From contig NW_025963957.1 in NCBI RefSeq assembly GCF_023055435.1, positions 6,820,001-6,884,000 on the forward strand: a stretch of DNA of 64,000 nt, given 5' to 3'. The stretch comes from Haliotis rufescens (lineage: Eukaryota). Each line of letters starts with the position of its first letter. Position 1 is the stretch's first letter. Positions 12,378 to 64,000 of the stretch are shown piece by piece. The translations under genes were made by a program, and so were the position numbers. The notes beneath the pieces are model-generated. The model ran no database searches. It saw only the letters and a program-made list of their open reading frames with translations, and was not told the DNA's origin.

Positions 12378-12383
12378 AATAAA
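12378..12383 (+). promoter_or_regulatory. Candidate polyadenylation signal of URB1
   Basis: AATAAA about 1.1 kb after the stop codon, followed by GT-rich sequence near 12415-12440. Confidence 0.45.
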
Positions 12384-12579
12384 ACAAACGCCCAGTGATT
12401 TCTACCCTTACCATTGTGTGAGTGAATGTTGTTTGCTTGTCGTTTAAGCGTCTAACACTAATTGGATCGAGTGGCCAGGTTCACTGACTTGGTTGATGCA
12501 TGTCATTGTATCCCAATTAGGTAGAACAATGCTGATGATGTCAATTACTGAATTGTGTGGTCCAGACACATTTGTTTAC

Positions 12580-12756
12580 AGTGAGTGAGTGAATGAGTGA
12601 GTATGGTTTCACACAGCGTTAAGCAATATTCCAGCAATATCACGGCGAGGGGACACCAGAAATGGGCTTTACACATTGTATCCATGTCGGGGAATCGAAA
12701 CCGGGTCTTCGGCGTAATGAGCGAATGCTTTAACGAATAGGCTACCCGACCGCCAC
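12580..12756 (-). mobile_element. Short tRNA-derived SINE with (ACTC)n tail
   Basis: tRNA head with GGTTTCGATTCCC B box on the minus strand and a (GAGT)n tail. Relatives at 27279-27465, ~29030-29140 and ~7575-7680. Confidence 0.75.
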
Positions 12757-13397
12757 CATTTATTTACAGACCCCCCTCATAACGACATAGAAACGACAAA
12801 AACAGCTGTATCACTCCCTCGCTACCTCTGTATCACTGCTGCATGTAAATAATCAAGTCTGCACAAACAAGTGATCAATAGCATGAGCAACAATCCAAGC
12901 TATTGGCATGCATACATAGCATGCAGAAGGAGACGGAATGACCATGATAGTTATGGCCGGGATGTTTATACAGAAGGTAACTCAACATACAAAGCATCAT
13001 TCAAGGGCCACAATTTGAATAATCAGTCAGTGGAATTAAACAGATGTGAGAGTTTGACTTGATTTATGAACATACTGTGACTGTGCCAAACAGCAGTATC
13101 CAGGTCTTCAAGTTTCAATGCAGTATTGCCACATATCTGTATACATCGTTCCTTCTACATGGGAAACAGTAAAACAAGTAATTACATACCGTTTTTATAT
13201 GTCCACGTTTCAGCTACTACACATATAATGTTCAATGGAATATACACTCTATTTAATTTGTTTTTGGTAAATTTACATTTTTCTTTCACAAATGAAAATT
13301 CAAGGTGGGACCTCTAACACTGGTGTTGACCTTTAGCCGTTTTAGCAGTGAAGTAACTAATAAGTATGAGTGATGAAGACAAGTGTTCTCGAGAGCA

Positions 13398-16300
13398 TCA
13401 CTTCTTGCGGGAAATCTTGCCCATGTTGCTGGGTCTGGGGGACATCTCGTTCGAATTCCCAGATGAGCTGCTTCGGCGGGACGGAGACTGGTCTCCGAGT
13501 CTCTCTCGACGCTTGCCTTTTGTTTCAACTGGAAATAACATTCAAACTTGGGATTTGAAATTTACTGACATGTCGACATGTTCGAGACGAACTCGAAAAT
13601 ACGCTCTAAGATCAGAACTGTTGCTAAATGTTTTAAGTTAATGATGCTGTAAAGGCTACAAGAAACTGTCCATATAGTCCTTGTTAATTTCACAGATGAT
13701 AAGTTGCCAAGTGACAAACAGGGGTGGAGTCCTAATCGAGATCAATGAGGTCCAAGAGCACTTCAAGATGACAACTGTCCTGGGTGGGGTTTTAAATGAC
13801 CTTAACACGGTGGGTTTAATGCCTAATTGAACAAATGTAAACACACATTTAAAAACTTTATGTGAGCAGTTGGTCTGACAGCCAGTAAAATAGGGTCACC
13901 ATAAAGATCAAAGACACTGGCAAAACTTGGATATGCTTTAACAAACGTGAAGGTGACTCGAATACCCTACCTCTATTACATCATAGCGATGAATTCCTGT
14001 TTTGGGGCTGTCAAACATTCTATTAAACTTTTAGATTTTCAACAGACGTCCTCTTCACTGCCAACAGCTAATAGTTGTAAGGAAAACTATCCTCCGCAGC
14101 TGCGTATGCGCGAGGCGGGAAAACGTCACTTCTTTCCAGTGTCTCCAGATTTAAAACAATCCAAATTTGTTATCGCGTTTGTCATTTTACACTCTAACTT
14201 TTTGAGATTATCTTAAAGTCAAGTTCAGACAAGCTGAGAGCAGATTACAGCCGATCTGGAGTATAAGAAGCAAGATCGTTAACGTAACTAAGTAGTTAGA
14301 AACGTATTGTGGGAGATGGACTCTCCCCTCTCCATCGCCGTCTGTCGTTTGCTATGGGTGCGACAATGATCAACTGACCGGAGATCCACAACAGAGATGC
14401 CAGTCGCGCAGAAAGAGCAGAAAACATTGATAAACTTTCCAAGGCGTTGAGGAATAACCTGGATACAACTAGAAAAACTACATCGGGAAAGAAATCTGAA
14501 GTACCTACTACAACAATTATAGCGAGGGTAGCGTTGCATGAGAAGCTGGTCAGACATTCATACCTACGCTGAATGGAGACACTCCTGCGTCTTCAGGATA
14601 TGGTCTAAGGAGCTGTGGACGAAACCCAACTGTTCCAGGTTCATATCGACTCTGGAATCCAAGGGGGGACCTGCCTGCTGATCAGTATGAGGGATGACGT
14701 GTCTGACACCGGCAGACCTAGGATAAATGTTCATCACCTGTTTGTTGACATCGTCAAGGTTCCTAAACCTTGCCATATCGACAATCATCTTGGTGGACGA
14801 CTTCTTGACTGGTTCTTGGTAATCCCCGTCGATGGTAGGATGCCGTAGGCGTTCTAACTGATGGCAGGAAGGCCGAGTCTAATGTTAGCAACGGTCCCAT
14901 TCATTAGCAGATTAACTATATCTGCATCTAGTTGATGAGGGCTTGAAAGAAGGGACGTTTTCCCGCCTCGCGCAGTTGTATTTCCAGCGGAGGATTGTTT
15001 TTCCTAACAACTGTTAGATGTGTTGGGAGTTAAGAGGACGCCTGTTGAAAATCTAAAACATTTTATAGTGTGATTGGCAGCCAAAACAGGAAATTATGGC
15101 TATGATGTAATAGAGCAGAGACCATATTAGAATTAAACACAGTGATAACTATCGCTTGATTTCAGGATAAAATCTGACAATATTAGTGAATCAAAAGAAG
15201 ACTCAATAGAAGACCCATCAACTGTAAACAGGACAAAATCAAATATCGTCCAAAAGAAAAAACAGGATTTCTTAACCCCTATAAATCTACTTGGTACCTC
15301 TGTGAACTTACTGACAACTTTCTTGGGCTTCTCGGCAGCAGCTGTGTATTGCTTTAACCTTCCTACAACACATTTGGAAAAATCAGTGATGTATATTCTA
15401 GTATGATAAAGAGAGATAACAGTATCTGTCTGTCACTTTTGAAAACATTTCAGTTTTTATTTATCATATGCATTATGAAATCAAGTTGAAAGTCGCTGCC
15501 TATTTCCCATATAGACTGATGAATATAGAACTAACACACTTGTTTTTGTTTTCAATTTCATATTTCACCAGCCAGTTTTAACTGCATTATTTCCTCCATT
15601 AAAGCCCCGGCCGTATATTTTTCACCGAAGTGGTAAACGTCTAAGACCTGCATCACTTGGGGCTTTCCTCCCACATTAAGCTGACACGCTGTGATATGAA
15701 TGGAATACTGTTAAAAGCAGCGTGAAACACAACTCACTCACTTTATTTGAGTAAACTGCACTTGGGCCCATTGTGAGGTGAGGTGGAATGGGGTTTAACG
15801 TCGCGTCCAAGATTATTGCACTTATATATAGCGACGTGCATGCACGTGTATGTGTGGCTGCTTGTACTAGTCCGGACTGATGCCGATTTATAGTGCTAGC
15901 TCACTGAGATACCATGCCGCAGTTTAACATGAATACCCCACTCAGACACAGTATCCTGACTCCGAGCCTGACAGTCCTTGTTTTAGCCCCTTAATGCCGA
16001 GCGCAAGACACGGTAACAACAAGTACCATCTTTTAACGTCTTTTGGTATGACGCGGCTGGGGATCGAACCCCGGACCTTCCGCTCTCCGTGCGGACGCTC
16101 TACCACTAGACCACGGAGGCGGTCCTGGGCCCATGGAGTAAATTTGCTGGTCTGTTTTGACTGAAACCCCGGATATGACAGTAAAGAGTTTTAGTTGATT
16201 GATAGTGTTGATCATCAGGTATATGAAGGTTTGTAGAGCTTACTGTCCAGTGTAGGGTAGGTCTTGTCCCAGTCCACCAGCAGCGGCACGATGCTCTTCA

Positions 16301-20089: not shown

Positions 20090-21529
20090 TACTTTAAAAA
20101 AAGAAGAAGATTGTGTGGGGTAGGAAAACCCATTTACACGAGGAACCGTACAAGGTATTGGGCCAAAATGTAGTGGAGAGAACACTTGATGATTGCAGTC
20201 ATCTCAGTTATCGGTACATAGGAAAAGTCCAAGATGAAGGTCAGCTACCAGCAATAACGCGTATGTCCCCCCTAGGAATCGATAGCGGCCTGATATCTCC
20301 TGCCCATGGAAGAGACGTGTATGCATGCAGCGAACCACATCCTTGAGAATGGTAGCCCGCTCGGCCTGAAACGCAAAATCCAACTGCTGCAACGTCTGGG
20401 GTTGTGGTTGACGTCGGCGTAGCCGTCTATCCAATTCATTCCACATGTGCTCTATCGGGTTTAAATCTGGGGATCTGGAGGACCAGGGGAGAACATCAAC
20501 ATTATTGTTGTTGTGTAGACAGGCTCTTGTGTTCCGTGCTGCATGTATGCAGTCGAGCGTTGTCCTGCAACACGGTTGGCTGCAATTGGGAGGACGTGTG
20601 GTAGGAGAATTTCGTCGATGTATGGTTGAGCCGTAAGATTGCCCTGGGTATGGACCAAGCCTGTCCTGCCTTGATAAGAGATATCCGCCCACATCATAAC
20701 GCTACCCCCACCAAACCTGTCCACTTCCTGTACGCAGTTCCGGCGTAACGTTCTCCCCGACGTCTGTAGACTCGTGCTCTTCTATCCCCTCGACGGAGGG
20801 GAAATCTTGATTCGTCGCTGAACTAGACATATCTCCATCGCAGTTGAGGCCATACCCTGTGTTGACGACACCATTGCAGTCGTTGTTGACGATGTTGTCG
20901 ACTCAATATGACGCGTCAAACAGGACGTCTTGCTTGTAGACCTGCTGCTCTTAAACGGTTTCATAGGTCTGGTCGGAGATTCTGGGTATTTGGTATCTTT
21001 TCACGTAGGTGGCGCAGTCGGATGCAGCAATCTTGGGCGGGGGTGGTTGCTCTAGGTCGTCCCGACCTTGGCCGATCACGTGTTGACCCATGCTGTTGCA
21101 ACCGGTCCCATAGCCTTGTGATGGTGCTGGGCGCTACATTGAAAACCCTGGCTACAGCTGATCGGGATTCTCCTGCCAGCAAGCGGCCTATGGCGTTGTT
21201 TCTTTGCACTTCTGTTAATCTTGACATGTTGTTGAACTGTCACTGTTCGAATGACGCAGATGCCAGGCAATCAAAAATCCTGCACTTTAATACCGTTCAT
21301 AGTGCTGCTGCACGTGCAGTACGAGCAGCTCCATGGCCCTTTTGTTAATGCACTGGGTGCGCTTTTCCGAATCGTACGTGTTTCCCGACTGATGGTTTGC
21401 ATGTCCTTGTTCTGATCATTTTGACTGACACCATAACACATTAAACCTCTTCATTTTGCACCTCTTGGTCCACTAATTTTGCTTTTATGGCCAAACATAT
21501 CCAATATACGTTTCTTTTTGTGAAGAGTA
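20090..21529 (-). mobile_element. Tc1/mariner (Tc1-type) DNA transposon with disrupted transposase
   Basis: Fragments MSRLTEVQRNNAIGRL...DRPRSGRPRATT (HTH/GRPR, 21227-20961), GGGSVMMWADIS and VLPWSSRSPDLNPIEHMW lie in different frames. Ends TACTTTAAAAAAAGAA and TTTCTTTTTGTGAAGAGTA are degenerate TIRs flanked by TA. Confidence 0.88.
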
Positions 21530-24818: not shown

Positions 24819-25688
24819 CTTACAGGTCCACACAATCAGATGGCGTGTGTTGCTGGTCCACACAATCAGATGATGTGTGTTACAGGTCCACACAATCAGA
24901 TGGCGTGTGTTGCAGGTCCACACAATCAGATGGTGTGTGTTACAGGTCCACACAATCAGATGGCATGTGTTACAGGTCCACCCAATCAGATGGTGTGTGT
25001 TACAGGTCCACACAATCAGATGGTGTGTGTTACAGGTCCACACAATCAGATGGTGTGTGTTACAGGTCCACACAATCAGATGGTGTGTGTTACAGGTCCA
25101 CACAATCAGATGGTATGTGTTACAGGTCCACACAATCAGATGGCGTGTGTTACAGGTCCACACAATCAGATGGTGTGTGTTACAGGTCCACACAATCAGA
25201 TGGTTTGTGTTACAGGTTCACACAATCAGATGGTGTGTGTTACAGGTCCACACAATCAGATGGTGTGTGTTACAGGTTCACACAATCAGATGGTGTGAGT
25301 TACAGGTTCACACAATCAGATGGTGTGTGTTACAGGTCCACACAATCAGATGGTGTGTGTTACAGGTTCACACAATCAGATGGTGTGAGTTACAGGTTCA
25401 CACAATCAGATGGCGTGTGTTACAGGTCCACACAATCAGATGGTATGTGTTACAGGTCCACACAATCAGATGGCGTGTGTTACAGGTCCACACAATCAGA
25501 TGGCGTGTGTTACAGGTCCACACAATCAGATGGTGTGTTACAGGTCCACACAATCAGATGGTGTGTGTTACAGGTTCACACAATCAGATGGTGTGTGTTA
25601 CAGGTCCACACAATCAGGTGGTGTGAATGTATTTCATGTCCACACGATCAGATGGCGTGTGTTACAGGTCCACAAGATCAGATGGTGT
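24819..25688. repeat. 30-bp minisatellite, about 29 copies
   Basis: TTACAGGTCCACACAATCAGATGGTGTGTG. Confidence 0.97.
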
Positions 25689-43700: not shown

Positions 43701-46700
43701 AGAATGGCAACAAATGATTTAACCCAAGAGCGTGATTGGTAGATGTCTCAACATGCATAGCATGTTTATCTGATGAATATTCTGTACCATTATCACACTG
43801 AAATAACGATTGCTAGATCTTGCCATAGAGTATCTGATCATTTTGAGCATCTCTGGAAAGTCAGGTTAATCTGATGTGATGGAGGTGAGTGAATAACGGA
43901 ATAAAAGCTCCTACGTTTTCTAGACAAAAGAGTTCCTGGCGAAGAATGCCCGAGACAAGGCGGACGCTGCAGGAATGACCCTGTTGCCTCATGGGAAGAT
44001 TACCTCCCAGCTGCCGGCCCCCGGAACCAAGATGACGGAACAGGAGCTGTCGGAGGTAAGGAGTATATTCTGTCTGTCTCAGTTGGAAAGTGCGCTATAC
44101 CGATTCCTGGTATGTACTGTGTTTCACGATGATTGTGCTTCAGATTAAGGACAAGCTGCTGAAAGAAGCCAAGGCAGTGTCGGCAACAACATCGTCCGAA
44201 TTCCTGAGGAAAGCTATCCGAGAAAAGCAAATGAAGAGAAATGGTAAATACCAGTCTTTGGATTATTTGTGTCTTGTTGATGCAAATGTCATAAAGATTT
44301 GTCATGTGGAAATTATCACCGTTTCAGTGAACATTCCGCTGCAGCCTGAGTGGCTGTTTCAGAGACCGTCCTTGACCTTGGACTTCATTGTTGGAGTGGA
44401 TGGACCCACTGATCATGTGAGTGACCTGTTTTATATCGAACATAATATCGAGAACCTGTGAGATGTTTATGTCACACTCTCCATTTGCTGTTGGGGTAAC
44501 TGTGTGGTGGAACGTGTTCCTGTTCCCGCCCACCCTCACCTCACCTCACCTCACCTCACCTCACCTCACCTCACCTCACCTCACCTCACCTCATAATATA
44601 CATAGGAGCATCTCTTGAAGTTCAATATTATCTTAACTGTTTACAATGGGAACACTATATCTTCCTCCTCATGTTTCAGAATATCGTGGCTCTGGGAACA
44701 TTGCCAGTTGCGCTTCAGGAACAAGCCATTTTGGATGATATCCTGTGTTGTATGCAGGTGTGTGGGCATCACGTTCTTGGCTCCGTGTTCAATATGTACA
44801 GCAGAGATTAAAACAAGAAACATCTACTTCATCCTAGAGACCCTAGGGTCCATTTTGTAGGCCAGAAAATGGTTTCTTGTGTTTAAAATAGATTGTCTCG
44901 GCAAAAACACCAAGATGTATGGGAAGACAAATAAATGATTTGAGGTCAATAGCAAAGAAAAAATAAAATTGAAGTTTGATATAGAAACATCAGGAAACTA
45001 TTTGAAACTTATTTTTTTCTTGACAAAGCTTGATGTTACTGTTGATGCTTCCAGGGCATTGAGGGAAAGTATATCCTAGCCCGAGCCCTCACGGAGAGAT
45101 ACGCTCCAAAAGAGTTCATGATAGACCAGAGTCTAGGTGAGTCACTGCAAGATATGTACTGTGTTATTGTGGTTCATGATAGATGAGGGTCTAGGTGAGT
45201 CGCTGCAAGATATGTACCGTGTTATTGTGGTTCATGATAGATGAGGGTCTAGGTGAGTCGCTGCAAGATATGTACCATGTTATTGTGGTTCATGATAGAT
45301 GAGGGTCTAGGTGAGTCGCTGCAAGATATGTACCGTGTTATTGTGGTTCATGATAGATGAGGGTCTAGGTGAGTCGCTGCAAGATATGTACCGTGTTATT
45401 GTGGTTCATGATAGATGAGGGTCTAGGTGAGTCGCTGCAAGATATGTACCGTGTTATTGTGGTTCATGATAGATGAGGGTCTAGGTGAGTCGCTGCAAGA
45501 TATGTACCGTGTTATTGTGGTTCATGATAGATGAGGGTCTAGGTGAGTCGCTGCAAGATATGTACCGTGTTATTGTGGTTCATGATAGATGAGGGTCTAG
45601 GTGAGTCGCTGCAAGATATGTACCGTGTTATTGTGGTTCATGATAGATGAGGGTCTAGGTGAGTCGCTGCAAGATATGTACCGTGTTATTGTGGTTCATG
45701 ATAGATGAGGGTCTAGGTGAGTCGCTGCAAGATATGTACCGTGTTATTGTGGTTCATGATAGATGAGGGTCTAGGTGAGTCGCTGCAAGATATGTACCGT
45801 GTTATTGTGGTTCATGATAGATGAGGGTCTAGGTGAGTCGCTGCAAGATATGTACCGTGTTATTGTGGTTCATGATAGATGAGGGTCTAGGTGAGTCGCT
45901 GCAAGATATGTACCGTGTTATTGTGGTTCATGATAGATGAGGGTCTAGGTGAGTCGCTGCAAGATATGTACCGTGTTATTGTGGTTCATGATGGATGAGG
46001 GTCTAGGTCTGGAATCCGCTGTGGCATATAAACAACATCTATTCAGTCTCGTCCTCCTACAAGAGTACTAATTGATATTATCCTAATGAAATGACAGTTC
46101 TCTTGAAGCGATATATTTATTTGAATAAAGAATGAAATTAATGACATCAAGTGTTTTCATATTGCTGACTAGGGCTGCAACGAATACACTATGAGGTGAA
46201 TACGTTTTGTATCCCGAGTATAGGGTAACGAATATGAATATTAATTCACGAATACAATAACAAGTCAGATGATGTATTATTTGTTATATTCAGTGAATCA
46301 TTAACATAAATCTTTTGACATGGTGTGTTAATTATAAATATATCATACATTTATATACTGCACTTATCCAGGTACTAGTATCTGCTCAAATGTGACAATG
46401 ACCAGTGACCCCAATCCTGTTAAATCAAATATTATCAGAGTGTTGTCTTTGAAGAAATCTATGCATATAATATGTTCTTATGGATATTTTTAGGTACAGG
46501 GTATGTAAATGCACATACTTGCATATTCATAAATATTTGATTCTAGTTGCAATGAATAACGAATTCAATTCATGAATGGATACGGTTCGATTCACCGAAT
46601 ACGCGAGTGAATCGTAACAGTCCTATTGCTGACAATTGCTTCAAAAAGTTGACGTCCGTATTCTTGAGCTGAGTGTGACATGTAGCGTGTCTGTGTTTGT

Positions 46701-52700: not shown

Positions 52701-55700
52701 CACATCATGTGGGAGTCAGCCGGGGCTGTTCATCAGATCATGTGGGAGTCAGCGGGGGCCGTTTTTTAGATAATGTGGGAGTCAGCGGGGGCCGTTCATT
52801 AGATCATGTGGGAGTCAGCGGGGGCCGTTCATCACATCATGTGGGAGTCAGCGGGGGCCCTTCATCACATCATGTGGGAGTAAGCGTGGGCCGTTCATCA
52901 GTTCATGTGGGAGTCAGCCGGGGCTGTTCATCAGATCATGTGGGAGTCAGCGGGGGCCCTTCATCAGATAATGTGTGAGTCAGCGTGGGCCGTTCATCAG
53001 ATCATGTGGGAGTCAGCGTGGGCCGTTCATCAGATCATGTGGGAGTCAGCGGGGGCCGTTCATCACATCATGTGGGAGTCAGCCGGGGCCGTTCATCACA
53101 TCATGTGGGAGTCAGCGGGGGCCGTTCATCACATCATGTGGGAGTCAGCGGGGGCCGTTCATCAGATCATGTGGGAGTCAGCGGGGGCTCTTCATCACAT
53201 CATGTGGGAGTCAGCGGGGGCCGTTCATCACATCATGTGGGAGTCAGCCGGGGCCGTTCATCAGATCATGTGGGAGTCAGAGTGGGCCGTTCATCAGATC
53301 ATGTGGGAGTCAGCGGGGGCTCTTCATCAGATCATGTGGGAGTCAGCGGGGGCGTTCATCACATCATGTGGGAGTCAGCCGGGGCCGTTCATCACATCAT
53401 GTGGGAGTCAGCGGGGGCCCTTCATCAGATCATGTGGGAGTCAGCGGGGGCCCTTCATCAGATCATGTGGGAGTCAGCTGGGACTCTTCATCAGATCATG
53501 TGGGAGTCAGCCGGGGCCGTTCATCAGATCATGTGGGAGTCAGCGTGGGCCGTTCATCAGATCATGTGGGAGTCAGCGGGGGCCGTTCATCAGATCATGT
53601 GGGAGTCAGCCCGGGCCGTTCATCACATCATGTGGGAGTCAGCGGGGGCTGTTCATCACATCATGTGGGAGTCAGCGGGGGCCATTCATCAGATCATGTG
53701 GGAGTCAGCCGGGGCCGTTCATCAGATCATGTGGGAGTCAGCGGGGGCCCTTCATCAGATCATGTGGGAGTCAGCGGGGGCTCTTCATCACATCATGTGG
53801 GAGTCAGCGGGGGCCGTTCATCAGATCATGTGGGAGTCAGCGTGGGCCGTTCATCAGATCATGTGGGAGTCAGCTAGGGCTCTTCATCACATCATGTGGG
53901 AGTCAGCGGGGGCCCTTCATCACATCATGTGGGAGTCAGCCGGGGCTGTTCATCAGATCATGTGGGAGTCAGCGGGGGCCGTTTTTTAGATAATGTGGGA
54001 GTCAGCGGGGGCCGTTCATTAGATCATGTGGGAGTCAGCGGGGGCCGTTCATCACATCATGTGGGAGTCAGCGGGGGCCCTTCATCACATCATGTGGGAG
54101 TAAGCGTGGGCCGTTCATCAGTTCATGTGGGAGTCAGCCGGGGCTGTTCATCAGATCATGTGGGAGTCAGCGGGGGCCCTTCATCAGATAATGTGTGAGT
54201 CAGCGTGGGCCGTTCATCAGATCATGTGGGAGTCAGCGTGGGCCGTTCATCAGATCATGTGGGAGTCAGCAGGGGCCCTTCATCACATCATGTGGGAGTC
54301 AGCGGGGGCTGTTCATCAGATCATGTGGGAGTCAGCGGGGGCTCTTCATCACATCATGTGGGAGTCAGCGGGGGCTGTTCATCACATCATGTGGGAGTCA
54401 GCGGGGGCCCTTCAGATCATGTGGGAGTCAGCGGGGGCTCTTCATCACATCATGTGGGAGTCAGCGGGGGCCGTTCATCACATCATGTGGGAGTCAGTGG
54501 GGGCTGTTCATCACATCATGTGGGAGTCAGCGGGGGCCCTTCATCAGATTATGTGGGAGTCAGCCGGGGCCGTTCATCACATCATGTGGGAGTCAGCGGG
54601 GGCCGTTCATCACATCATGGTTGAGCCAGCGGGGGCCGTTCATCACATCATGTGGGAGTCAGCGGGGGCCGTTCATCAGATCATGTGGGGCTGCTTCCAT
54701 CTTTTCCTCAGCTCAAACCTAGATGAGGACAACCTCACAAAGTGAATATCCATTCTGTGACTGTAAAACAATTGTTCATAGCGCATTAATAGAAAATTAT
54801 ATCTCTTGGGAAAAGACTACATAACTGCGTGGGTAAGAATTTGTGGGTGTGGGTGGGTGTGTGCGGGCGCACGGTAGAGTGGGTGAATTCAGAATGCCTG
54901 AAATTTGGTTTCTATACATTTAGTTGTATTTTATAAAAATGTTCTTCCTTCCCCATCCCCCTCATGTCTGATTTGTGGGTTTCTGCAGGGTGAGTTAATT
55001 GTTTTTGTTGCAGGGTGAGTTAATTGTTTGTGTTGCTTGTTGCAGGGTGAGTTAATTGTTTTTGTTGCAGGGTGAGTTAATTGTTTGTGTTGCTTGTTGC
55101 AGGGTGAGTTAATTGTTTGTGTTGCTTGTTGCAGGGTGAGTTAATTGTTTGTGTTGCTTGTTGCAGGGTGAGTGTATTGGAGGAGCCGTGCTCAGTCTGC
55201 TGCATGAGAAGACGTCCACGCTGATCGGGTAAACACAGCTCCTAGGCAGGAGAAACATTTGTTGGAATAAGTTGTCTAGTCTTACACTAGGCACACTAAT
55301 AGGCTGATCACCTACCCAGTACCTGACAGCTTCTCAAGTACCACACGAGTCGCCCGGATGGCCCAGTGGTCTAAGGTGCACTTTGTTGGTCCAGGTTCTG
55401 CTGGTCAGGGGTTTGAATCCCGGTTAACCCTGACCATGATCCCTGGTGTTGTCATGTCATGTATCAAAGGAAGCTACAGATCTTATGTTAGTGCAGAGTA
55501 AGCGTAAGTGGATAATAAAAATAAAAGCACCTGTTTACTTGTTTGGATTGGATCCGTTATGTTTCCTGTTTGGTATCTGGGTTTTGGGTGCTTGTTATGT
55601 CGTTTGTGATATTTCTGATGTAAGGATGAAATGGTTTTGTTTGAGATATGTTGTCTTCTCTTCTTGCAGTGATGCTAAAAGTCAAGAGCTGTGCCTCTAC

Positions 55701-58700
55701 CTAACACAGTCGGTGAGTACAGCTTGATCTCGCGAGTCTTCAAACCAGTAAACCCACTTGAATAATGAGAAAGTAAAGAATACAAAGGGGATTTACCCAT
55801 GAGTTGTTAATCTTAATATTTGCTCATCCATTTTTTGGTTGAAGTCACTGTGGTCATCTAAAGCTGTTCCACAGTCAGTAGGGACACCAGTCTGAATGGT
55901 TGTATGGTAGAGTTGTCTTCTTCTTCTTTATGCTGTGGGAACGGTCATTACGGGAATCTTGACATCTCTAACTCCACATGTAGTGACAATTATATTGTTG
56001 TGTATGTCTTCAGGAATGCCATCATAATGGATTTTAAAAACTTTTATGACAAACTTTCTATTTCCCAGATGAATTTAATGTTTTGTTCGTTTAGGCAGAT
56101 TTGTTCGACATTGCACAAATGGAAAAGTACTCCACTTTCCTTGTATATTCTTATTGTACCAGTTACATGACAGTTGAAATAATAGGGACATTTTAATTGA
56201 AAAACAGGAAATAATTTAGTTGGTGTTAAGAGTATTCGGCGTAACGACAGTCATTACATGCTTGTAAACATGACGGTCAGTCGGTTGTGAGTTCAACTCC
56301 AGGCCTGGTTGTAGGCTGCCTAGCACTGTGGGGAGCTGTGAGTGTTGGCAGTGATAGCATAGAGAACTCTGCGAACAGGGTGTCACTGGGGAACTGTGAC
56401 TGGTCGCAGTGATAGCGTAGAGAACTCCGCGAACAGGGTGTCACTGTGAGGAACTATGATTGGTCGCAGTGATAGCGTAGAGAACTCCGCGAACAGGGTG
56501 TCACTGTGAGGAACTGTGATTGGTCGCAGTGATAGCATAGAGAACTCCACGAACAGGATGTCACTGTGGGGAACTGTGACTGGTGGCATTTGTAGCGTAG
56601 AGAACTCCGCGAACAGGGTGTCACTGTGGGGAACTGTGACTGGTCGCAGTGGTAGCATAGAGAACTCCGCGAACAGGGTGTCACTGTGGGGAACTGTGAC
56701 TGGTCGCAGTGATAGCGTAGAGAACTCCACGAACAGGGTGTCACTGTGAGGAACTATGATTGGTCGCAGTGATAGCGTAGAGAACTCCGCGAACAGGGTG
56801 TCACTGTGAGGAACTGTGATTGGTCGCAGTGATAGCGTAGAGATCTCCACGAACAGGATGTCACTGTGGGGAACTGTGACTGGCGGCATTTGTAGCGTAG
56901 AGAACTCCGCGAACAGGGTGTCACTGTGGGGAACTGTGACTGGTCGCAGTGGTAGCGTAGAGAACTCCGCGAAATGGGTGTCACTGTGGGGAACTGTGAC
57001 TGGTCGCAGTGATAGCGTAGAGAACTCCGCGAACAGGGTGTCACTGTGGGGAACTGTGACTGGTCGCAGTGATAGCGTAGAGAACTCCGCGAACAGGGTG
57101 TCACTGTGGGGAACTGTGACTGGTCGCAGTGGTAGCATAGAGAACTCCGCGAACAGGGTGTCACTGTGGGGAACTGTGACTGGTCGCAGTGATAGCGCAG
57201 AGAACTCCGTGAACAGGGTGTCACTGTGGGGAACTGTGACTGGTGGCAGTGGTGGCGTAGAGAACTCCGCAAACAGGGTGTCATTGTGGGGAACTGTGGC
57301 AGTGGTAGCGTAGAGAACTCTATGAACGGCTGTCACTGTGCGGAGCTTGATGCCCTTTGTACCTGCTGCTGTGTATAGTTAAAGGTGTCTCAGTCTTCAG
57401 CAATATGATATGTGAAGTGAAAGGGATCGAAATAAAACCGTTGATGGTTTGTTTACAGGCTTGTGTTCCGTACTTCGAGATCTTGGAGAAGTGGATCTAC
57501 AAAGGCATTATATCCGACCCTTACACTGAGGTTTGTACTTGTCATAGATTATACCTACCTACCTACCTACATACATATATATATCTTTACTCTGACCCTC
57601 CACAGAGATCATGTCAACCAATCATTATGAAACCATTTGGCAATGGCCATTTTGTGTGGTGGATGGCTTGCACTATGGTTTTATTTCTCCAACTCCAGAC
57701 AGTTGTAAGAGTATTGTCCAAGATCACAGTTGAAATATTTTTGAAAGCTGACATCTGATTGGCCCTAAGCCCCACTATTGGTGGTAGAAGTTCCCCTGAG
57801 ATGTGGTGGGTTTGTCAGATGTTCACGGAGAAGGTGAACTATACATCTGATTTTTGAAAAACGACTGAATTCATCTTCAGTGCAATATCTCTAATGGGCA
57901 AGAAATCTGTTGATGTGTGACACAAGCCATATGTGTAGGCTGGGATGTGCCGTGCACCAAGTGTCCTTGTGTTTATGGAGCCGTGCAGCAAGTGGTCTTT
58001 GTTTCAGTTTCTGGTGGAGGAGAACGAGACCATTCAGAAGGAGAAACTACAGGAGGAGTACAACGATGCATATCCTTTCTGGATCTTGTCAAAAAATAAA
58101 AACTTTGAAAATATCATTCCACTATGGAAAAAGCTGAATGAAACAATGTCTGATTTTATTATTCCTCTGAAAACAATGAATAGAATAAGTGAATAAGAAT
58201 ACTTTGTTAAGAACAAATTAAGAAGTGCTCTTTAAGGATGGCAGAACTAAGACTTCTCTATTCCATTCTTTGTGTACGTCAACCTTAAACTTTGTAAGTT
58301 ATTCCAATGTGAGTTTAGGTAATGGTAGGTCTTAGCAAGCCTTCTGGCTAACAAGGGCAAAAGTTGTATTCTGCAACAAGGCGCATACATCACCTTGATT
58401 ATGCTGCATACTGGTACAGTGAAATTGTATAATCACTATACGCAGGAGACTTTGAGTCAGTGCATTAAGCCATGCATACACTTATGTTGAGTGTCCCTTG
58501 TGGTATAAGCCACGTATACACGGGATGTGAGTGTCCCTAGTGCTTTAAGCCACATATACACTGTATGTTGAGTGTCCCTAGTGCTTTAAGCCATGTATAC
58601 ACTGTATGTTGAGTGTCCCTAGTGCTATAAGCCATGTATACACTGTATGTTGAGTGTCCCTTGTGGTATAAGCCACGTATACACTGGATGTGAGTGTTCC

Positions 58701-61700
58701 AAGTGCTTTAAGCCACGTATACACTGTATGTTGAGTGTCCCTAGTGGTATAAGCAACGTATACACTGGATGTTGAGTGTCCCTAGTGCTATAAGCCACGT
58801 ATACACAGTATGTTGAGTGTCCCTACTGTTATAAGCCATGTATACACTACGTTGAGTGTCCCTAGTGCTATACGCCTCTGTCCCTAGTGCTATAAGCCAC
58901 GTATACACTGTATGTTGAGTGTCCTAAGTGCTATAAGCCACTGTCCCTAGTGCTATAAGCCATGTATACCCTGTATGTTGAGTGTCCCTAGTGCTATAAG
59001 CCATGTATACACTGTATGTTGAGTGTCCCTAGTGCTATAAGCCATGTATACCCTGTATGTTGAGTGTCCCTAGTGCTATAAGCCATGTATACACTGTATG
59101 TTGAGTGTCCCTAGTGCTATAAGCCACGTATACACTGTATGTTGAGTGTCCCTAGTGCTATAAGCCATGTATACACTGTATGTTGAGTGTCCCTAACTGT
59201 GCCACCTACTGGGAGCAGCACTACACCATCTGTAGAGAGAGGATCCCTGTGTTCCTGGAGACGATGGCAGACAAGATCCTCAACACCGGGAAGTACCTCA
59301 ACGTGGTCCGACTCTGTGGTAGGTGATCTCACCAGTGATATGTTTACAAAGAAGTTGTGGGTTCTGCCCCCGGTAACCCATGCTTATTGTAAGAGGTGAC
59401 TACATGGACTGGGTGGTCAGGCCCGGAGACATGGCTGATGGCACGTCACTGTACCCGGATGCATGGACTGGGTGGTCAGGCCTAGAGACATGGCTGATGG
59501 CACGTCACTGTATCCGGATGCATGGACTGGGTGGTCAGGCCTAGAGACATGGCTGTTGTCACGTCACTGTATCCGGATGCATGGACTGGGTGGTCAGGCC
59601 GGAGACATGGCTGATGGCACGTCACTGTACCCGGATGCATGGACTGGGTGGTCAGGCCTAGAGACATGGCTGATGGCACGTCACTGTATGCGGATGCATG
59701 GACTGGGTGGTTAGGCCTAGGAGACATGGACTGCGTGGTCAGGCCCGGAGACATGGCTGATGGCACGTCACTGTATCCGGATGCATGGACTGGGTGGTCA
59801 GGCCTAGAGACATGGCTGTTGTCACGTCACTGTATCCGGATGCATGGACTGGGTGGTCAGGCCCAGAGACATGGCTGATGGCACGTCACTGTATCCGGAT
59901 GCATGGACTGGGTGGTCAGGCCTAGAGACATGGCTGATGGCACGTCACTGTATCCGGATGCATGGACTGGGTGGTCAGGCCCGGAGACATGGCTGATGGC
60001 ACGTCACTGTATGCGGATGCATGGACTGGGTGGTTAGGCCTAGAGACATGGACTGCGTGGTCAGGCCCGGAGACATGGCTGATGGCACATCACTGTATCC
60101 GGATGCATGGACTGGGTGGTCAGGCCTAGAGACATGGCTGTTGTCACGTCACTGTATCCGGATGCATGGACTGGGTGGTCAGGCCCGGAGACATGGCTGA
60201 TGGCACGTCACTGTATCCGGATGCATGGACTGGGTGGTCAGGCCTAGAGACATGGCTGATGGCACGTCACTGTATCCGGATGCATGGACTGGGTGGTCAG
60301 GCCCAAAGACATGGCTGATGGCACGTCACTGTATCCAGATGCATGGACTGGGTGGTCAGGCCCGGAGACATGGCTGATGGCACGTCACTGTATCCGGATG
60401 CATGGACTGGGTGGTCAGGCCCAAAGACATGGCTGATGGCACGTCACTGTATCCGGATGCATGGACTGGGTGGTCAGGCCTAGAGACATGGCTGATGGCA
60501 CGTCACTGTATCCGGATGCATGGACTGGGTGGTCAGGCCCGGAGACATGGCTGATGGCACGTCACTGTATCCGGATGCATGGACTGGGTGGTCAGGCCCA
60601 AAGACATGGCTGATGGCACGTCACTGTATCCGGATGCATGGACTGGGTGGTCAGGCCCGGAGACATGGCTGATGGCACGTCACTGTATCCGGATGCATGG
60701 ACTGGGTGGTCAGGCCCAGAGACATGGCTGATGGCACGTCACTGTATCCAGATGCAAGGACTGGGTGGTCAGGCCTAGAGACACGGCTGATGGCACGTCA
60801 CTGTACCCGGATGCATGGACTGGGTGGTCAGGCCGGAGACATGGCTGATGGCACGTCACTGTATCCGGATGCATGGACTGGGTGGTCAGGCCGGAGACAT
60901 GGCTGATGGCACGTCACTGTACCCGGATGCATGGACTGGGTGGTCAGGCCCAGATGCATGGACTGGGTGGTCAGGCCTAGAGACATGGCTGTTGTCACGT
61001 CACTGTATCCGGATGCATGGACTGGGTGGTCAGGCCGGAGACATGGCTGATGGCACGTCACTGTATCCAGATGCATGGACTGGGTGGTCAGGCCTAGAGA
61101 CATGGCTGATGGCACGTCACTGTATGCGGATGCATGGACTGGGTGGTTAGGCCTAGGAGACATGGACTGGGTGGTCAGGCCCGGAGACATGGCTGATGGC
61201 ACGTCACTGTATCCAGATGCATGGACTGTTGCTTATAGCATCAACCACAGTTTTGTGTATTGTCTACATTTTTGACCAGTTTCACTGATAAATACACCCA
61301 ACCTTCATCAACTACATAAAGCTGACACTGTGATGTGGTTGAAATATGATGGACCTGATAGGCATGGGGTTTAGTGAAGAAAGGAGAGGTGTTTTGACTT
61401 AAGGTGTGGAAGTGGTCAGGGTTCAAGATTCTTCTCATTTGAGCCAAGGGTGTAGTTATGGGTAGTTTGTTGTTTTAGATACGTAGTTCCTTTGGCGATG
61501 TTAATCATATGAATGGGGGTACAGGAGGCCCGGTCGTCTAAGACGCCGCATTTCACAGCGTAGAGTTGCGCTCCTTGTGCACTCCAGAAATCTATGGTTG
61601 TGGCTTCAAATCCCGGTTCACCCCGATTATGTTTCTAGGTTTGTTAGCACCATACTCGTGGTTTTACCAAAGTGTTAAACGTCTGAGACCTGCATCACTT

Positions 61701-63077
61701 GGGGCTGTCCTCCCACATTAAGCTGAAATGTCGTGATATGACTGGAATACTGGTCAAAGTGGTTATAAACCCAACTCAATCACATATGGAGCCAGTGATG
61801 AATGTACTTTTGCACATGTGGTAAAAAGCCTGGAAGCTGCTGGCCATATGAATGGCAGTATTGAATTCAGGTATTGAATAGGGTATTAATGAGCTCTGTG
61901 AAAACGAAGGGCAAACCTTCTAAACTATGAGTATTGAGTTAAGAATGTGCATACCTGAACATCCCTATGGGTTCTGCCTCCCAAATAAAATACGTCTGTA
62001 TCCTTGGTATTTGCAGCTCGTGATGTGAAGTGTCCGTATGCCGAGGAGATTGTGTACACTCTGAAGGAGAGGCGGTACTATGACCAGATAGATAAAGCGT
62101 ATCACTACGCCAGCCGCCTCCTGCTCGACCTCCTCATGGAGGAGAAGGAACTCATGGCTCGCATCAGGTGAGGAGGTCACAGACTTTCTGAAGGTCTTCA
62201 AGGCAAGAAATGAGATGTATTTCAGAACGGATCCCAGTGGTCAACAAAGAAAGACGGACTTCCGGTCATCAGCATCAGTTTGGGGTTAAACGATCCGGCC
62301 CCCCCAAAAACCTTTCTTGTTGTATTTCAATTGACCATGTTGACCCACACATTGATACATCTTACATCTAATAGGCGTAAACATTGAACCAAATGAATGC
62401 ACTACTTCCTGCTGTGTTTCAGGTCAATAAAGCACTACTTCCTGCTGTGTTTCAGGTCAATAAAGCACTACTTCCTGCTGTGTTTCAGACCAATAAAGCA
62501 CTACTTCCTGCTGTGTTTCAGGTCAATAAAGCACTACTTCCTGCTGGACAAGGGCGACTTCATGGTGCAGTTCATGGACATGACGGAGGAGGAGATGAAG
62601 CAGAACATCGAAGATATCCTTGACTTGTTTGATAGGCATTACTTGGAAGTTGACGGACGACAAAGTAGACACAATTTTTGGATAATAACTTCTTTAATAC
62701 AGTAAAAGGACATATATAACGGTATAAGGATCTAAACTGAAACATCGCCTTTACAGTATTAAAGAAATTGTTATCCATAAATTCTGTCTACTTTGTCGTT
62801 AACACTTCTTTGAACGGTAGTTGTGTCAAAGTGTTGCAGGACGTAGATATTTACCATTTGGTGAAACTCAGGACTAGAAGCAGTCCCTGTGAAGCAATGT
62901 TTAAAATCAGTATTGTATTTTGTTGCATGTTTAATGTCAGGTGAAGTGTGATATCATTTTGAGATATTAGAATTCCTTAACCCACGTACATATCATGCCG
63001 ACTCGTCTCGAGTCCCTCTTGGAGCTGGCTCTCAGGACAAGCACAGCAAACGTGGACCCCTTCAAGGACGACCTCAG
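40797..63077 (+). CDS. TUBGCP2: Gamma-tubulin complex component 2 (GCP2), 5' 21 coding exons (577 codons), continues past window
   Basis: Exons 40797-40849, 41440-41521, 42145-42236, 43600-43657, 43924-44055, 44144-44243, 44328-44416, 44680-44757, 45055-45136, 46707-46784, 49607-49674, 49881-49925, 51675-51767, 55167-55228, 55670-55712, 57459-57530, 58008-58069, 59206-59318, 62017-62167, 62522-62613, 62990-63077, with phases consistent. Peptides MSEFKVHHHVSEL, FEYGLVNHAL, LSLQKLWFYIQP, PYFEILEKWIYKG, KILNTGKYLNVVR, RSIKHYFLLDKGDF, DPFKDDL are characteristic of GCP2. Confidence 0.96.
40929..41046. repeat. 16-bp minisatellite, about 7 copies
   Basis: GACCTAGTGCAACGAA. Confidence 0.9.
41567..41944 (+). 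mobile_element. tRNA(Leu-like)-headed SINE with internal 29-bp tandem expansion
   Basis: Head GGTGGCCGAGTGG...GGTTTGAACCCC, body CCTCCCACATTAAGCTGACA, (CACT)n tail. TGATATAACTGGAATACTGTTCAAAGTCG x4 at ~41802-41914. Relatives at 61525-61785, 15620-15742 and a head at 55350-55435. Confidence 0.7.
42612..42977. mobile_element. hAT-like MITE
   Basis: Ends TATGGCTGGGAC and GTCCCAGCCATG; 8-bp TSD ATATTGAC/ATATGGAC (7/8). Confidence 0.7.
43085..43575. mobile_element. Palindromic MITE with ~100-bp imperfect TIRs
   Basis: CAATCTCGTTAAGATCAAATCTTAGTTCTCG pairs with CGAGAACTAAGATCTGATTTTCATGAGATTG, and pairing continues inward. Confidence 0.75.
44533..44592. repeat. (CACCT)n microsatellite
   Basis: Seen directly in the sequence. 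Confidence 0.95.
45114..46008 (+). repeat. 58-bp minisatellite, about 15.4 copies, copying a TUBGCP2 exon end and donor
   Basis: GTTCATGATAGATGAGGGTCTAG|GTGAGTCGCTGCAAGATATGTACCGTGTTATTGTG; the first unit is the real exon end. Confidence 0.97.
46170..46625. mobile_element. hAT-like MITE
   Basis: Ends TAGGGCTGCAACGA and TCGTAACAGTCCTA; perfect 8-bp TSD TTGCTGAC; subterminal GAATA repeats. Confidence 0.85.
46937..49262. repeat. Compound 11/12-bp minisatellite
   Basis: Interleaved modules GTGTCCCATGCA, GTGTAACCTG(C/G)A and GTCCCATCAAT. Confidence 0.95.
49949..50368. repeat. Degenerate 11-bp-based repeat
   Basis: TGATCC(A/T)TGTA variants grouped in 33- and 66-bp blocks. Confidence 0.85.
51787..54688. 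repeat. 33-bp intronic minisatellite, about 88 copies
   Basis: GTGGGAGTCAGCGGGGGCCGTTCATCAGATCAT; higher-order duplication with a 1220-bp offset (52761 vs 53981). Confidence 0.97.
54984..55173 (+). repeat. 25/32-bp repeat copying a TUBGCP2 acceptor and exon start (7 copies)
   Basis: GCAG|GGTGAGT at 54985, 55010, 55042, 55067, 55099, 55131 and 55163; the last is the real acceptor. Confidence 0.95.
56325..57340. repeat. 60-bp minisatellite, about 16 copies
   Basis: TGGTCGCAGTGATAGCGTAGAGAACTCCGCGAACAGGGTGTCACTGTGGGGAACTGTGAC; 300-bp higher-order period. Confidence 0.97.
58070..59205 (+). other. U12-type (minor spliceosome) AT-AC intron in TUBGCP2
   Basis: 5' end ATATCCTTT; branch-point-like GTCCCTAAC at 59189-59197; ends in GCCAC. 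Removal restores ...YNDA/YWEQHY... in frame. Confidence 0.9.
58460..59195 (+). repeat. 41-bp minisatellite running into the U12 branch point
   Basis: GTGTCCCTAGTGCTATAAGCCA(T/C)GTATACACTGTATGTTGA. Confidence 0.95.
59403..61228 (+). repeat. ~59-bp minisatellite derived from a SINE body, about 31 copies
   Basis: CATGGACTGGGTGGTCAGGCCTAGAGACATGGCTGATGGCACGTCACTGTATCCGGATG. Confidence 0.95.
61525..61785 (+). mobile_element. Same SINE family as 41567-41944
   Basis: Colinear similarity over the whole length. Confidence 0.7.
62399..62546 (+). repeat. 33-bp in-frame repeat copying a TUBGCP2 acceptor and exon start
   Basis: GTCAATAAAGCACTACTTCCTGCTGTGTTTCAG; acceptor AGs end at 62422, 62455, 62488 and 62521. 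Confidence 0.95.
62614..62989 (+). other. U12-type AT-AC intron in TUBGCP2
   Basis: 5' end ATATCCTTG; perfect U12 branch point TTCCTTAAC at 62973-62981; ends in GTAC. Removal restores ...NIED/IMPTRLESLLELALR in frame. Confidence 0.93.
62626..62800. mobile_element. Penelope-like palindromic element, third copy, inside the U12 intron
   Basis: Inverted arms ACGACAAAGTAGACACAATTT...AAATTCTGTCTACTTTGTCGT; central AACGGTATAAGGATCTAAACTGAAACATCGCC. Confidence 0.6.
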
Positions 63078-64000
63078 GTAGGGACGGAGAGAATGGTTCA
63101 TGTTCAAGGATGACCTCAGGTAGGGAGGGAGAGATTGGTTCATGTTCAAGGATGACCTCAGGTAGTGAGGGAGAGATTGGTTCATGTTCAAGGATGCCCT
63201 CAGGTAGGGAGGGAGAGATTGGTTCATGTTCAAGGATGACCTCAGGTAGGGAGGGAGAGATTGGTTCATGTTCAAGATTGAACTCAGGTAGGGAGGGAGA
63301 GATTGGTTCATGTTCAAGGATGACCTCAGGTAGGGAGGGAGAGATTGGTTCATGTTCAAGAACGAACTCAGGTAGGGAGGGAGAGATTGGTTCATGTTCA
63401 AGGATGACCTCAGGTAGGGAGGGAGAGATTGGTTCATGTTCAAGGATGACCTCAGGTAGGGAGGGAGAGATTGGTTCATGTTCAAGGATGACCTCAGGTT
63501 GGTTCATGTTCAAGGATGCCTTCAGGTAGTGAGGGAGAGATTGGTTCATGTTCAAGGATGACCTCAGGTTGGTTCATGTTCAAGATTGAACTCAGGTAGG
63601 GAGGGAGAGATTGGTTCATGTTCAAGGATGACCTCAGGTAGGGAGGGAGAGATTGGTTCATGTTCAAGGATGACCTCAGGTAGTGAGGGAGAGATTGGTT
63701 CATGTTCAAGGATGACCTCAGGTAGGGAGGGAGAGATTGGTTCATGTTCAAGGATGGCCTCAGGTTGGTTCATGTTCAAGGATGCCCTCAGGTAGGGAGG
63801 GAGAGATTGGTTCATGTTCAAGGATGACCTCAGGTAGGGAGGGAGAGATTGATTCATGTTCAAGGATGACCTCAGGTAGTGAGGGAGAGATTGGTTCATG
63901 TTCAAGAACGAACTCAGGTAGGGAGGGAGAGATTGGTTCATGTTCAAGGATGACCTCAGGTAGGGAGGGAGAGATTGGTTCATGTTCAAGGATGACCTCA
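63061..64000 (+). repeat. 42-bp (some 28-bp) minisatellite copying a TUBGCP2 exon end and donor, about 23 copies, runs off the window
   Basis: TTCAAGGATGACCTCAG|GTAGGGAGGGAGAGATTGGTTCATG. Confidence 0.97.

What the first reader, a model, noticed from the sequence alone, without database searches (positions are those of the whole stretch)
62399..62546. Four in-frame acceptors could insert 11, 22 or 33 residues into GCP2; the unit also carries AATAAA
Seen: the 33-nt unit is the first 25 exon bases plus TGTTTCAG and is stop-free, so upstream acceptors add R(S/P)IKHYFLLCF repeats to a conserved segment. The pyrimidine tract of the real acceptor is itself copied exon sequence. Four AATAAA hexamers interleaved with TGTGTTT also resemble an intronic poly(A) site, just upstream of a U12 intron. 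This is the one array here where every decoy can change the protein without a frameshift or stop.
Basis: partly seen in the sequence, partly recalled or inferred. Interest (0 to 1): 0.7.

Follow-up and report, generated by a model that had tools for sequence, protein, structure and literature searches.

The report
Abalone GCP2 splice-acceptor "mirage" repeat
A 33-base piece spanning an intron end and the next exon's start is repeated in an abalone microtubule-nucleation gene, and although the spare copies could add 11-33 amino acids on paper, the assembled RNA joins to the normal last copy, so it is likely a tolerated repeat of a kind already known from lancelets and humans.

Summary
The sequence observation holds. 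A 33-nt unit (8 intron + 25 exon bases, 4.5 copies) spans the exon-20 acceptor of abalone (Haliotis) TUBGCP2. It gives four in-frame, stop-free acceptors, followed by a spliced U12 AT-AC intron. The proposed functions lack support. In 5 of 5 RNA-like runs laid (3 studies) the spliced contig joins 62167 to 62522, and no join to a spare copy or poly(A) end is listed. AATAAA is the exon's own Ser-Ile-Lys codons. None of 7 annotated Haliotis GCP2 proteins carries the insert, and 125 of 126 homologues have no indel there. Five of the gene's 58 splice sites carry such arrays; one being in-frame and open is expected by chance (about 0.72). Copy number probably varies between individuals. One point stays open: 2 of the 5 runs hold a low-depth repeat-only contig. 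It fits unspliced RNA (about 3%) or minor insertion isoforms (about 3-5%, at most about 9-12%), and contigs cannot separate the two. This is a new member of the lancelet "mirage" class and close to human CBS 844ins68. This scan's notes report the same kind at other loci of this genome and in at least 10 genomes.

The parts
62017..62167 (+). TUBGCP2 exon 19; ends in phase 2 inside Arg518; donor CAG|GTGAGG
   Evidence: spliced contigs
62168..62521 (+). Intron 19 (354 nt, GT-AG, U2 type), removed whole in every spliced contig seen
   Evidence: joint 'skips 354, GT..AG' in X1, X2, X4, X9 and X2, X3
62399..62546 (+). 33-nt tandem array, 4.5 copies; unit = last 8 intron nt + first 25 nt of exon 20
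   Evidence: unique in the genome; array pieces also present in DNA-like runs X15 and X16
62421..62422 (+). Spare acceptor 1 (exon start 62423, +33 aa if used)
   Evidence: no joint seen
62454..62455 (+). Spare acceptor 2 (62456, +22 aa if used)
   Evidence: no joint seen
62487..62488 (+). Spare acceptor 3 (62489, +11 aa if used; variant AG|ACC copy, seen in X15, no contig in X16)
62498..62513 (+). Pyrimidine tract of the used acceptor; identical to exon bases 62531-62546
   Evidence: sequence; 13 of 17 pyrimidines at -20..-4, against 7-15 at the gene's other acceptors
62520..62521 (+). Used acceptor AG (exon 20 starts at 62522)
   Evidence: gene model 922/922 identical to P0002
62426..62497 (+). 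Three intronic AATAAA copies (62426, 62459, 62492)
62525..62530 (+). Exonic AATAAA within the Ser519-Ile520-Lys521 codons; the template of the copies
62522..62613 (+). TUBGCP2 exon 20 (92 nt), near the start of the GCP C-terminal domain (PF04130, residues 513-867)
62614..62989 (+). Intron 20, U12-type AT-AC (ATATCCTT donor; TTCCTTAAC branch at 62973-62981)
   Evidence: joint 'skips 376, AT..AC' in 4 of 4 runs; same intron with the same signals in L006
62990..63077 (+). TUBGCP2 exon 21; its donor is itself amplified by a 42-nt array (63061 onward)

Best explanation
This is a tandem duplication of the intron-19/exon-20 border of abalone TUBGCP2, a likely neutral and probably length-variable "mirage" minisatellite, and the spliced RNA contigs use only the last, native acceptor. 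Shown: the anatomy, the in-frame potential, the join 62167 to 62522, the spliced U12 intron, and four further splice-site arrays in the same gene. Inferred origin: slippage or unequal crossing-over copied 33 nt across the border. The 5' edge starts mid-unit, so the ancestral pyrimidine tract was likely lost or overwritten, and the exon's own TTC CTG CTG codons now serve as the tract. Inferred selection: the last acceptor likely wins by exon definition, because only it is followed by the full 92-nt exon and lies closest to the U11 donor at 62614, while each spare copy carries only 25 nt of exon. Any use of the spare copies is likely at noise level (a few percent). The frame and the AATAAA are likely by-products of a 33-nt unit made mostly of coding sequence.
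For: Spliced contigs join 62167 to 62522 in 5 of 5 RNA-like runs laid (X1, X2, X3, X4, X9; studies P1-P3); the 2 DNA-like runs show no such joint. In one search every record was listed (2 per RNA run), and the only loose ends were the upstream exon. 0 of 7 annotated Haliotis GCP2 proteins have the insert, although the same annotations do list alternative last-exon isoforms. 125 of 126 full-length homologues have no indel in residues 500-545; the exception is P0001, a model with three insertions in this stretch, and another record for the same species (P0008) has none. 5 of 58 splice sites of this gene carry spanning arrays, and 21 arrays fill 18.0 of 38.2 kb of intron. A random acceptor-spanning duplication of 20-60 nt is in frame and open in 23% of cases (30% if exon-rich), so the chance of at least one among five is 0.72. 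k-mer depths in X15 and X16 fit alleles with 2-4 acceptors better than the window's allele alone. Literature: lancelet mirages do not disturb splicing and vary in length (PMC3087553, PMC3902484); in human CBS 844ins68 the distal copy of a duplicated acceptor is chosen; the minor and major spliceosomes bridge exons upstream of minor introns (PMC8034651).
Against: X2 and X3 each hold an isolated 63-nt contig on 62399-62461 (depth 6.72 against 73.6, and 3.8 against 59.2), while their spliced contigs skip the unique part of the intron. Some RNA molecules therefore carry at least two units. This fits unspliced RNA at 2.5-3.5% but equally a 62423-type isoform at 3-5%. Branch-point-like YTRAY motifs lie only upstream of the first spare acceptor (-52 to -89), and none lies within 100 nt of the used one, so simple first-AG scanning predicts the wrong site; however, 11 of 29 acceptors in this gene lack the motif within 60 nt. 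In human donor arrays (6-16, CBS intron 13) the nearest pseudo-sites are used as well as the true one (PMC1557585 passages). Only contigs were available, tissues are unknown, and 5 of 14 RNA-like holders were laid. The ancestral abalone intron end was not available, so the origin story is untested.
Confidence: 0.83

Rival explanations
1. Productive alternative acceptors: the spare copies give GCP2 isoforms with 11, 22 or 33 extra residues at the start of the C-terminal domain, at a level that matters or is regulated, and copy-number alleles would tune the isoform set.
For: All three spare acceptors are in frame, open, and share the same 23 nt upstream, so they would escape nonsense-mediated decay. 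A repeat-only contig is present in X2 and X3. The best branch-point motifs precede the first copy. Because the insert repeats residues 518-526, it can be placed after Leu526, in the predicted loop 525-529, rather than mid-helix (model).
Against: No alternative joint appears in 5 runs. A one-unit isoform alone cannot make the full 33-k-mer cycle, and if all repeat k-mers came from isoforms the ceiling is about 9% (X2) or 6% (X3) for a 62456-type and 12% or 8% for a 62489-type isoform. 0 of 7 Haliotis proteins carry it, and 125 of 126 homologues are indel-free here; S519, K521, Y523, F524 and D530 are invariant in 105 sequences. The splice point lies inside predicted helix 513-524 (pLDDT about 93). 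Being in frame is expected by chance.
Confidence: 0.07
2. Recursive rescue: copies 1, 2 and 4 read AG|GT, so splicing to a spare acceptor would regenerate a donor (CAG|GTCAAT) that re-splices to 62522 and gives the normal mRNA. The copies would be used but leave no trace in mature RNA.
For: The regenerated site matches 8 of 11 positions of the U1 consensus, equal to the native intron-19 donor. The residual introns would be 99 and 66 nt, and the gene's shortest introns are 84 and 88 nt. The copy only 33 nt from the end is the one lacking GT. This would reconcile the upstream branch motifs with the distal outcome. Tandem duplication of AGGT is an accepted route to new splice pairs (PMC3443670 passages).
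Against: The site lacks both +3 purine and +5 G; 0 of the gene's 27 GT donors lack both. Most described recursive sites are in long introns (PMC10156609 introduction). One-step splicing explains the data as well. No direct evidence.
Confidence: 0.06
3. Intronic polyadenylation: the repeated AATAAA with TGTGTTT elements truncates some transcripts in intron 19, perhaps coupled to slow splicing of the U12 intron downstream.
For: Three intronic AATAAA, each with a GU/U-rich element 15-60 nt downstream. The repeat-only contig in X2 and X3 is not excluded as part of such ends.
Against: The hexamer is the Ser-Ile-Lys codon string. The identical hexamer sits in the coding exon of every full-length mRNA, and in an unrelated animal's exon (L008). 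15 of the gene's 22 intronic AATAAA meet the same downstream criterion. No poly(A) loose end occurs in X2 or X3, where all records were listed. The site is about 260 nt behind a U1 donor, where premature cleavage is normally suppressed (recalled, no call).
Confidence: 0.04

Closest known systems
Lancelet 'mirage' minisatellites (Adh3, troponin C, globins BflGb6/BflGb9, PGBD5); PMC3087553 and PMC3902484, passages read
   Same: Tandem copies of an intron/exon border; BflGb6 repeats the intron 3' end plus the exon 5' part, as here. The unit length falls within the Adh3 range (10-72 bp). Splice signals are kept, normal splicing is undisturbed, and copy number differs between haplotypes.
   Different: Mollusc rather than cephalochordate. 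The unit is three-quarters exon, so every copy is in frame and open, and the real acceptor's pyrimidine tract is made of copied codons. The exon is bounded downstream by a U12 intron.
Human CBS 844ins68; passages of PMC2630376 and PMC1802585; the primary paper (Romano 2002) was seen only as a citation
   Same: Duplication of an intron/exon junction gives two identical 3' splice sites close together; the distal one is chosen and the mRNA is normal.
   Different: One 68-bp duplication rather than a 4.5-copy array. There, G runs between the sites promote distal choice; this unit has no G run.
Human junction-spanning VNTRs (F7 IVS7 37 bp, LMNB2, PDGF, 6-16, CBS intron 13); PMC1557585 abstract and passages
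   Same: Polymorphic minisatellite that reiterates a splice site; the site next to the true exon dominates.
   Different: These are donor arrays; in 6-16 and CBS intron 13 the nearest pseudo-sites are also used.
Intron gain by tandem duplication of AGGT; PMC3443670 passages
   Same: The duplicated unit holds AG|GT, which could serve as both acceptor and donor.
   Different: Here the intron position is old (same position in L006 and L008) and no new intron is shown.

Membership tests
Mirage (intron/exon-border minisatellite) | Head-to-tail repeats whose unit spans an exon-intron border | tested here: met
   33-nt unit = 8 intron + 25 exon nt, 4.5 copies
Mirage (intron/exon-border minisatellite) | Copies keep the splice signal | tested here: met
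   3 of 3 spare copies keep TGTTTCAG
Mirage (intron/exon-border minisatellite) | Regular splicing undisturbed | tested here: met
   62167 to 62522 in 5 of 5 RNA-like runs; use below about 10% is not excluded
Mirage (intron/exon-border minisatellite) | Length instability between alleles | tested here: inconclusive
   The variant unit is seen in X15 and not in X16, and k-mer depths fit 2-4 acceptors; no read spans the array, and contigs can drop variants
Alternative 3' splice sites (productive) | Joints to more than one acceptor in mature RNA | tested here: inconclusive
   None seen in 5 runs; the repeat-only contig in 2 runs is of unresolved origin; contigs drop rare forms
Alternative 3' splice sites (productive) | Isoform present in annotation or tolerated in homologues | tested here: not met
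   0 of 7 Haliotis proteins; 125 of 126 homologues indel-free
Intronic polyadenylation site | AATAAA with a downstream GU/U-rich element | tested here: met
   3 of 3 intronic copies, but also 15 of 22 intronic AATAAA in this gene
Intronic polyadenylation site | Cleaved, polyadenylated RNA ends | tested here: inconclusive
   No poly(A) loose end in X2 or X3; contigs cannot show RNA ends
Recursive splice site | Acceptor AG followed directly by a usable donor | tested here: inconclusive
   AG|GT present in copies 1, 2 and 4; the donor lacks +3 purine and +5 G
Recursive splice site | Splicing intermediates or lariats from the regenerated donor | not testable with these tools
   Needs nascent or lariat reads
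U12-type AT-AC intron (intron 20) | ATATCCTT donor, TCCTTAAC branch close to an AC end, spliced in RNA | tested here: met
   same intron in L006

The most novel reading that the evidence does not exclude
The repeat-bearing RNA seen in X2 and X3 is real spliced message. A copy-number-variable acceptor array makes NMD-proof GCP2 isoforms with 22-33 extra residues in an otherwise indel-free segment of the gamma-tubulin ring complex, so a minisatellite allele tunes the protein. Alternatively, the AG|GT copies act as short-range recursive splice sites that erase their own use.
Probability: 0.1. Interest if true: 0.55.

Novelty: new member of a known kind. Interest (0 to 1): 0.15.

Why it matters
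As it stands this is an ordinary example of a described repeat class. Its modest value is as a natural test case: three acceptors with the same upstream 23 nt and no frameshift or stop penalty are passed over, and decay of faulty messages cannot hide their use. Raw reads here would therefore measure acceptor choice directly, including the role of exon definition through a U12 donor. If the isoforms were real and abundant, it would link a minisatellite genotype to the structure of a core microtubule-nucleation subunit. Paper searches found no description of mirages in abalone; most subscription journals and all supplements were outside what I saw.

Tried and rejected
1) Run search: no holder is on record as RNA. 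The 14 'RNA?' rows are guesses; the 5 I laid contain intron-skipping contigs. 2) Zero depth on the spare copies in X1, X4 and X9 is not taken as proof of absence: at depths 12-30 a 3% form would fall below assembly thresholds. In one search, 3 joints, 147 loose ends and 936 pieces were not shown. 3) I tried to assign the 63-nt contig to unspliced RNA or to isoforms by k-mer content. This excludes only a single-unit isoform as the sole source. Graph cleaning would give the same isolated cycle either way (assembler behaviour recalled, no call). 4) Enrichment of arrays at splice sites in this gene: 5 of 21 against a null mean of 2.3, P = 0.06 in a crude within-intron shuffle; not claimed. 5) A degenerate fifth unit at 62366-62398: its local score of 14 is below the mean of other intron windows (18.9); rejected. 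6) The first structure model (13 sequences) had pLDDT under 50 at the site and was discarded for the 105-sequence model. The insertion isoforms were not folded. 7) The metagenome scan for the ancestral abalone intron returned 3 loci, none abalone-like. 8) The idea that the short C-terminal isoform arises from the exon-30 acceptor array: it maps to a separate exon at G000:C179 about 6,896,867; rejected. 9) The look-up of earlier notes near this place found nothing. 10) U12 literature search: none of the 20 papers listed mentions TUBGCP2.

Full report
Observation. The array is real: 62399-62546, period 33, 4.5 copies, 96% matches. It gives four acceptors with exon starts at 62423, 62456, 62489 and 62522, all in frame and stop-free. 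The unit is the last 8 nt of the intron plus the first 25 nt of the exon. The array begins 9 nt into an exon copy, so every acceptor, the real one included, has copied exon sequence as its pyrimidine tract. A 23-nt core occurs 4 times in the 1.33-Gb genome, all here. AATAAA occurs four times, but the fourth is in the coding exon, within the codons TCA ATA AAG.

The gene. The upstream exon is 100% identical to P0002, a Haliotis gamma-tubulin complex component 2. A 30-exon model built from the window and the adjoining genome translates 922/922 identical to P0002. The array lies at the acceptor of exon 20. Introns 17 and 20 are U12-type AT-AC. Three metagenome loci from other animals have a single acceptor at this exon. 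In two of them the upstream exon is in view and the intron position is the same, and one also keeps the U12 intron. One of them (L008) carries AATAAA in the same codons with no array.

RNA evidence. Five RNA-like runs from three studies were laid, out of 14 listed. Each has a long contig that joins 62167 to 62522 with no mismatches, and the four laid across it also join 62613 to 62990. No joint to a spare acceptor is listed. In the narrower lay all records were shown, and the only loose ends were the upstream exon. Against a clean result, X2 and X3 each hold an isolated 63-nt contig that is exactly one cycle of the unit's 31-mers, at depth 6.72 against 73.6 and 3.8 against 59.2. Converted by expected multiplicity, this is 3.5% and 2.5% if unspliced RNA, 4.6% and 3.2% if a 62423 isoform, 9% and 6% for a 62456 isoform, and 12% and 8% for a 62489 isoform. 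The last two cannot supply the whole cycle alone. Unspliced background of this size exists in these libraries: X1 holds an intron-20 contig at 2.3 against 29.8, and X4 an intron-18 boundary contig at 4.93 against 12.5. Contig depth is a rough measure, and the two origins cannot be separated. The fair reading is that 62522 dominates, with any other use at most about a tenth and probably a few percent or nil.

DNA evidence. X15 and X16 hold the intron and array pieces and show no joint. The variant third unit is present in X15 (depth 33.2) and has no contig in X16. For X15, allele pairs with fewer copies fit the k-mer depths better (rms 2.0-4.8) than the window allele on both chromosomes (7.0). 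For X16, a two-plus-three acceptor pair fits the flank depth. Length variation is therefore likely but not proven; these runs differ from the window at 5 of 469 bases and may be another population or species.

Protein evidence. None of the 7 annotated Haliotis GCP2 proteins has the insert. They differ only in the last exon and, in one species, by 3 residues near position 319. Of 126 full-length homologues spanning residues 505-540, 125 have no indel in 500-545 (4 proteins under 400 aa were dropped from the 130 held). The site is at the start of Pfam PF04130. In a 105-sequence AlphaFold2 model the splice point lies within helix 513-524 (pLDDT about 93), followed by a short loop and helix 530-538. 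Because the insert repeats residues 518-526 it could loop out after Leu526, so the model does not prove it destructive; conservation only says nothing like it has been kept.

Is the in-frame property special? The gene has 21 tandem arrays covering 47% of its intron bases, and 5 of them span a splice site: donors 9 and 21, acceptors 14, 20 and 30. In-frame open copies number 0 of 14 (donor 9), 0 of 5 (acceptor 14), 3 of 3 (acceptor 20) and 0 of 19 (donor 21). The 15 spare copies at acceptor 30 all meet a stop within 2-4 codons. But simulated border duplications are in frame and open 23% of the time at acceptors and 22% at donors, which gives 0.72 for at least one among five. No selection is needed.

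Poly(A) signal. The hexamer is a coding accident copied with the unit. The gene has 22 intronic AATAAA, 15 of them with a GU/U-rich element downstream. No RNA end supports use here, though contigs cannot show ends.

Mechanism. Shown: the structure and the dominant use of the last acceptor. Inferred: origin by slippage or unequal exchange, and choice by exon definition, since only the last copy is followed by the whole exon and lies next to the U11 donor. [quoted passage not shown] First-AG scanning alone would predict the first copy, which has the branch-like motifs; this is the weak point of the account. It is also why recursive re-splicing through AG|GT is kept as a minor rival (PMC3443670 passages; PMC10156609 outline and introduction).

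Comparison with known systems. It works like, and meets the tested features of, the lancelet 'mirages' (PMC3087553 and PMC3902484, passages; the original Adh3 paper was not read). Human CBS 844ins68 is the closest single acceptor case (PMC2630376 and PMC1802585, passages; the first calls the sites 'donor', the second 3' splice sites). Human donor VNTRs show that nearest pseudo-sites are sometimes used (PMC1557585, abstract and passages). The term 'mirage' reached me through earlier notes of this scan, which report the same kind at several other loci of this genome and in at least 10 genomes; I checked the cited papers but not those loci. Searches found no paper on such arrays in abalone. No supplements were read; those of the lancelet papers may show in-frame cases.

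Verdict. Observation confirmed; interpretation partly supported (the potential is real, use is not shown). A new member of a known kind, interest 0.15. The one open item is the low-depth repeat-bearing RNA in two runs, which raw reads would settle.

Noticed in passing
window 58070-59205: A second U12-type AT-AC intron (intron 17) in the same gene. A 41-nt array (58459-59195) runs right up to its branch sequence, and the last repeat supplies the first bases of TCCCTAAC.
   Followed up: partly
window 45114-46008, 54984-55173, 63061-64000; L003 8734-9630: Four more splice-site-spanning arrays in TUBGCP2 (donor 9, 58 nt; acceptor 14, 25/32 nt; donor 21, 42 nt; acceptor 30, 31 nt). All their spare copies are frameshifted or meet a stop.
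   Followed up: yes
window 62620-62800: A high-copy element inside U12 intron 20 draws summed contig depths of thousands to about 31,000 in the RNA-like runs, with some joints between opposite strands; probably a SINE or MITE. It starts about 7 nt behind the U12 donor.
   Followed up: no
L003, about 4867 (G000:C179 about 6,896,867): An alternative last exon encoding a 5-residue C-terminus matches the short annotated isoform, which is also listed for two other Haliotis species.
   Followed up: partly
P0019, P0020, P0023, residues 318-321: The Haliotis rubra annotations carry a 3-residue insertion near the exon 12/13 border that the other three species lack; possibly a shifted splice site or a model error.
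   Followed up: no
L007 216-750: In another animal's GCP2 gene, the stretch matching abalone exon 21 and its donor is followed by at least two degenerate copies of about 150 nt; an independent duplication at the donor that carries the 42-nt array in abalone. This gene also lacks the U12 intron 20.
   Followed up: partly
window about 5700-15400: Exons of a URB1-like gene (Pfam NopRA1 hit at 5762-6070), with intronic arrays at 53-2101, 6090-6328 and 9143-9277 whose units hold AG|GT or AG|G motifs; not checked against a gene model.
   Followed up: partly
window 24820-25688: A 30-nt array (28.9 copies) that is open in several frames for 120-310 codons; not assigned to any gene.
   Followed up: no
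window about 20200-21350: Minus-strand reading frames resembling a broken Tc1/mariner transposase (resemblance recalled, not searched).
   Followed up: no
P0025: A sea-slug GCP2 model holds an exact internal duplication of about 183 residues covering this region; possibly an assembly or model artefact.
   Followed up: no
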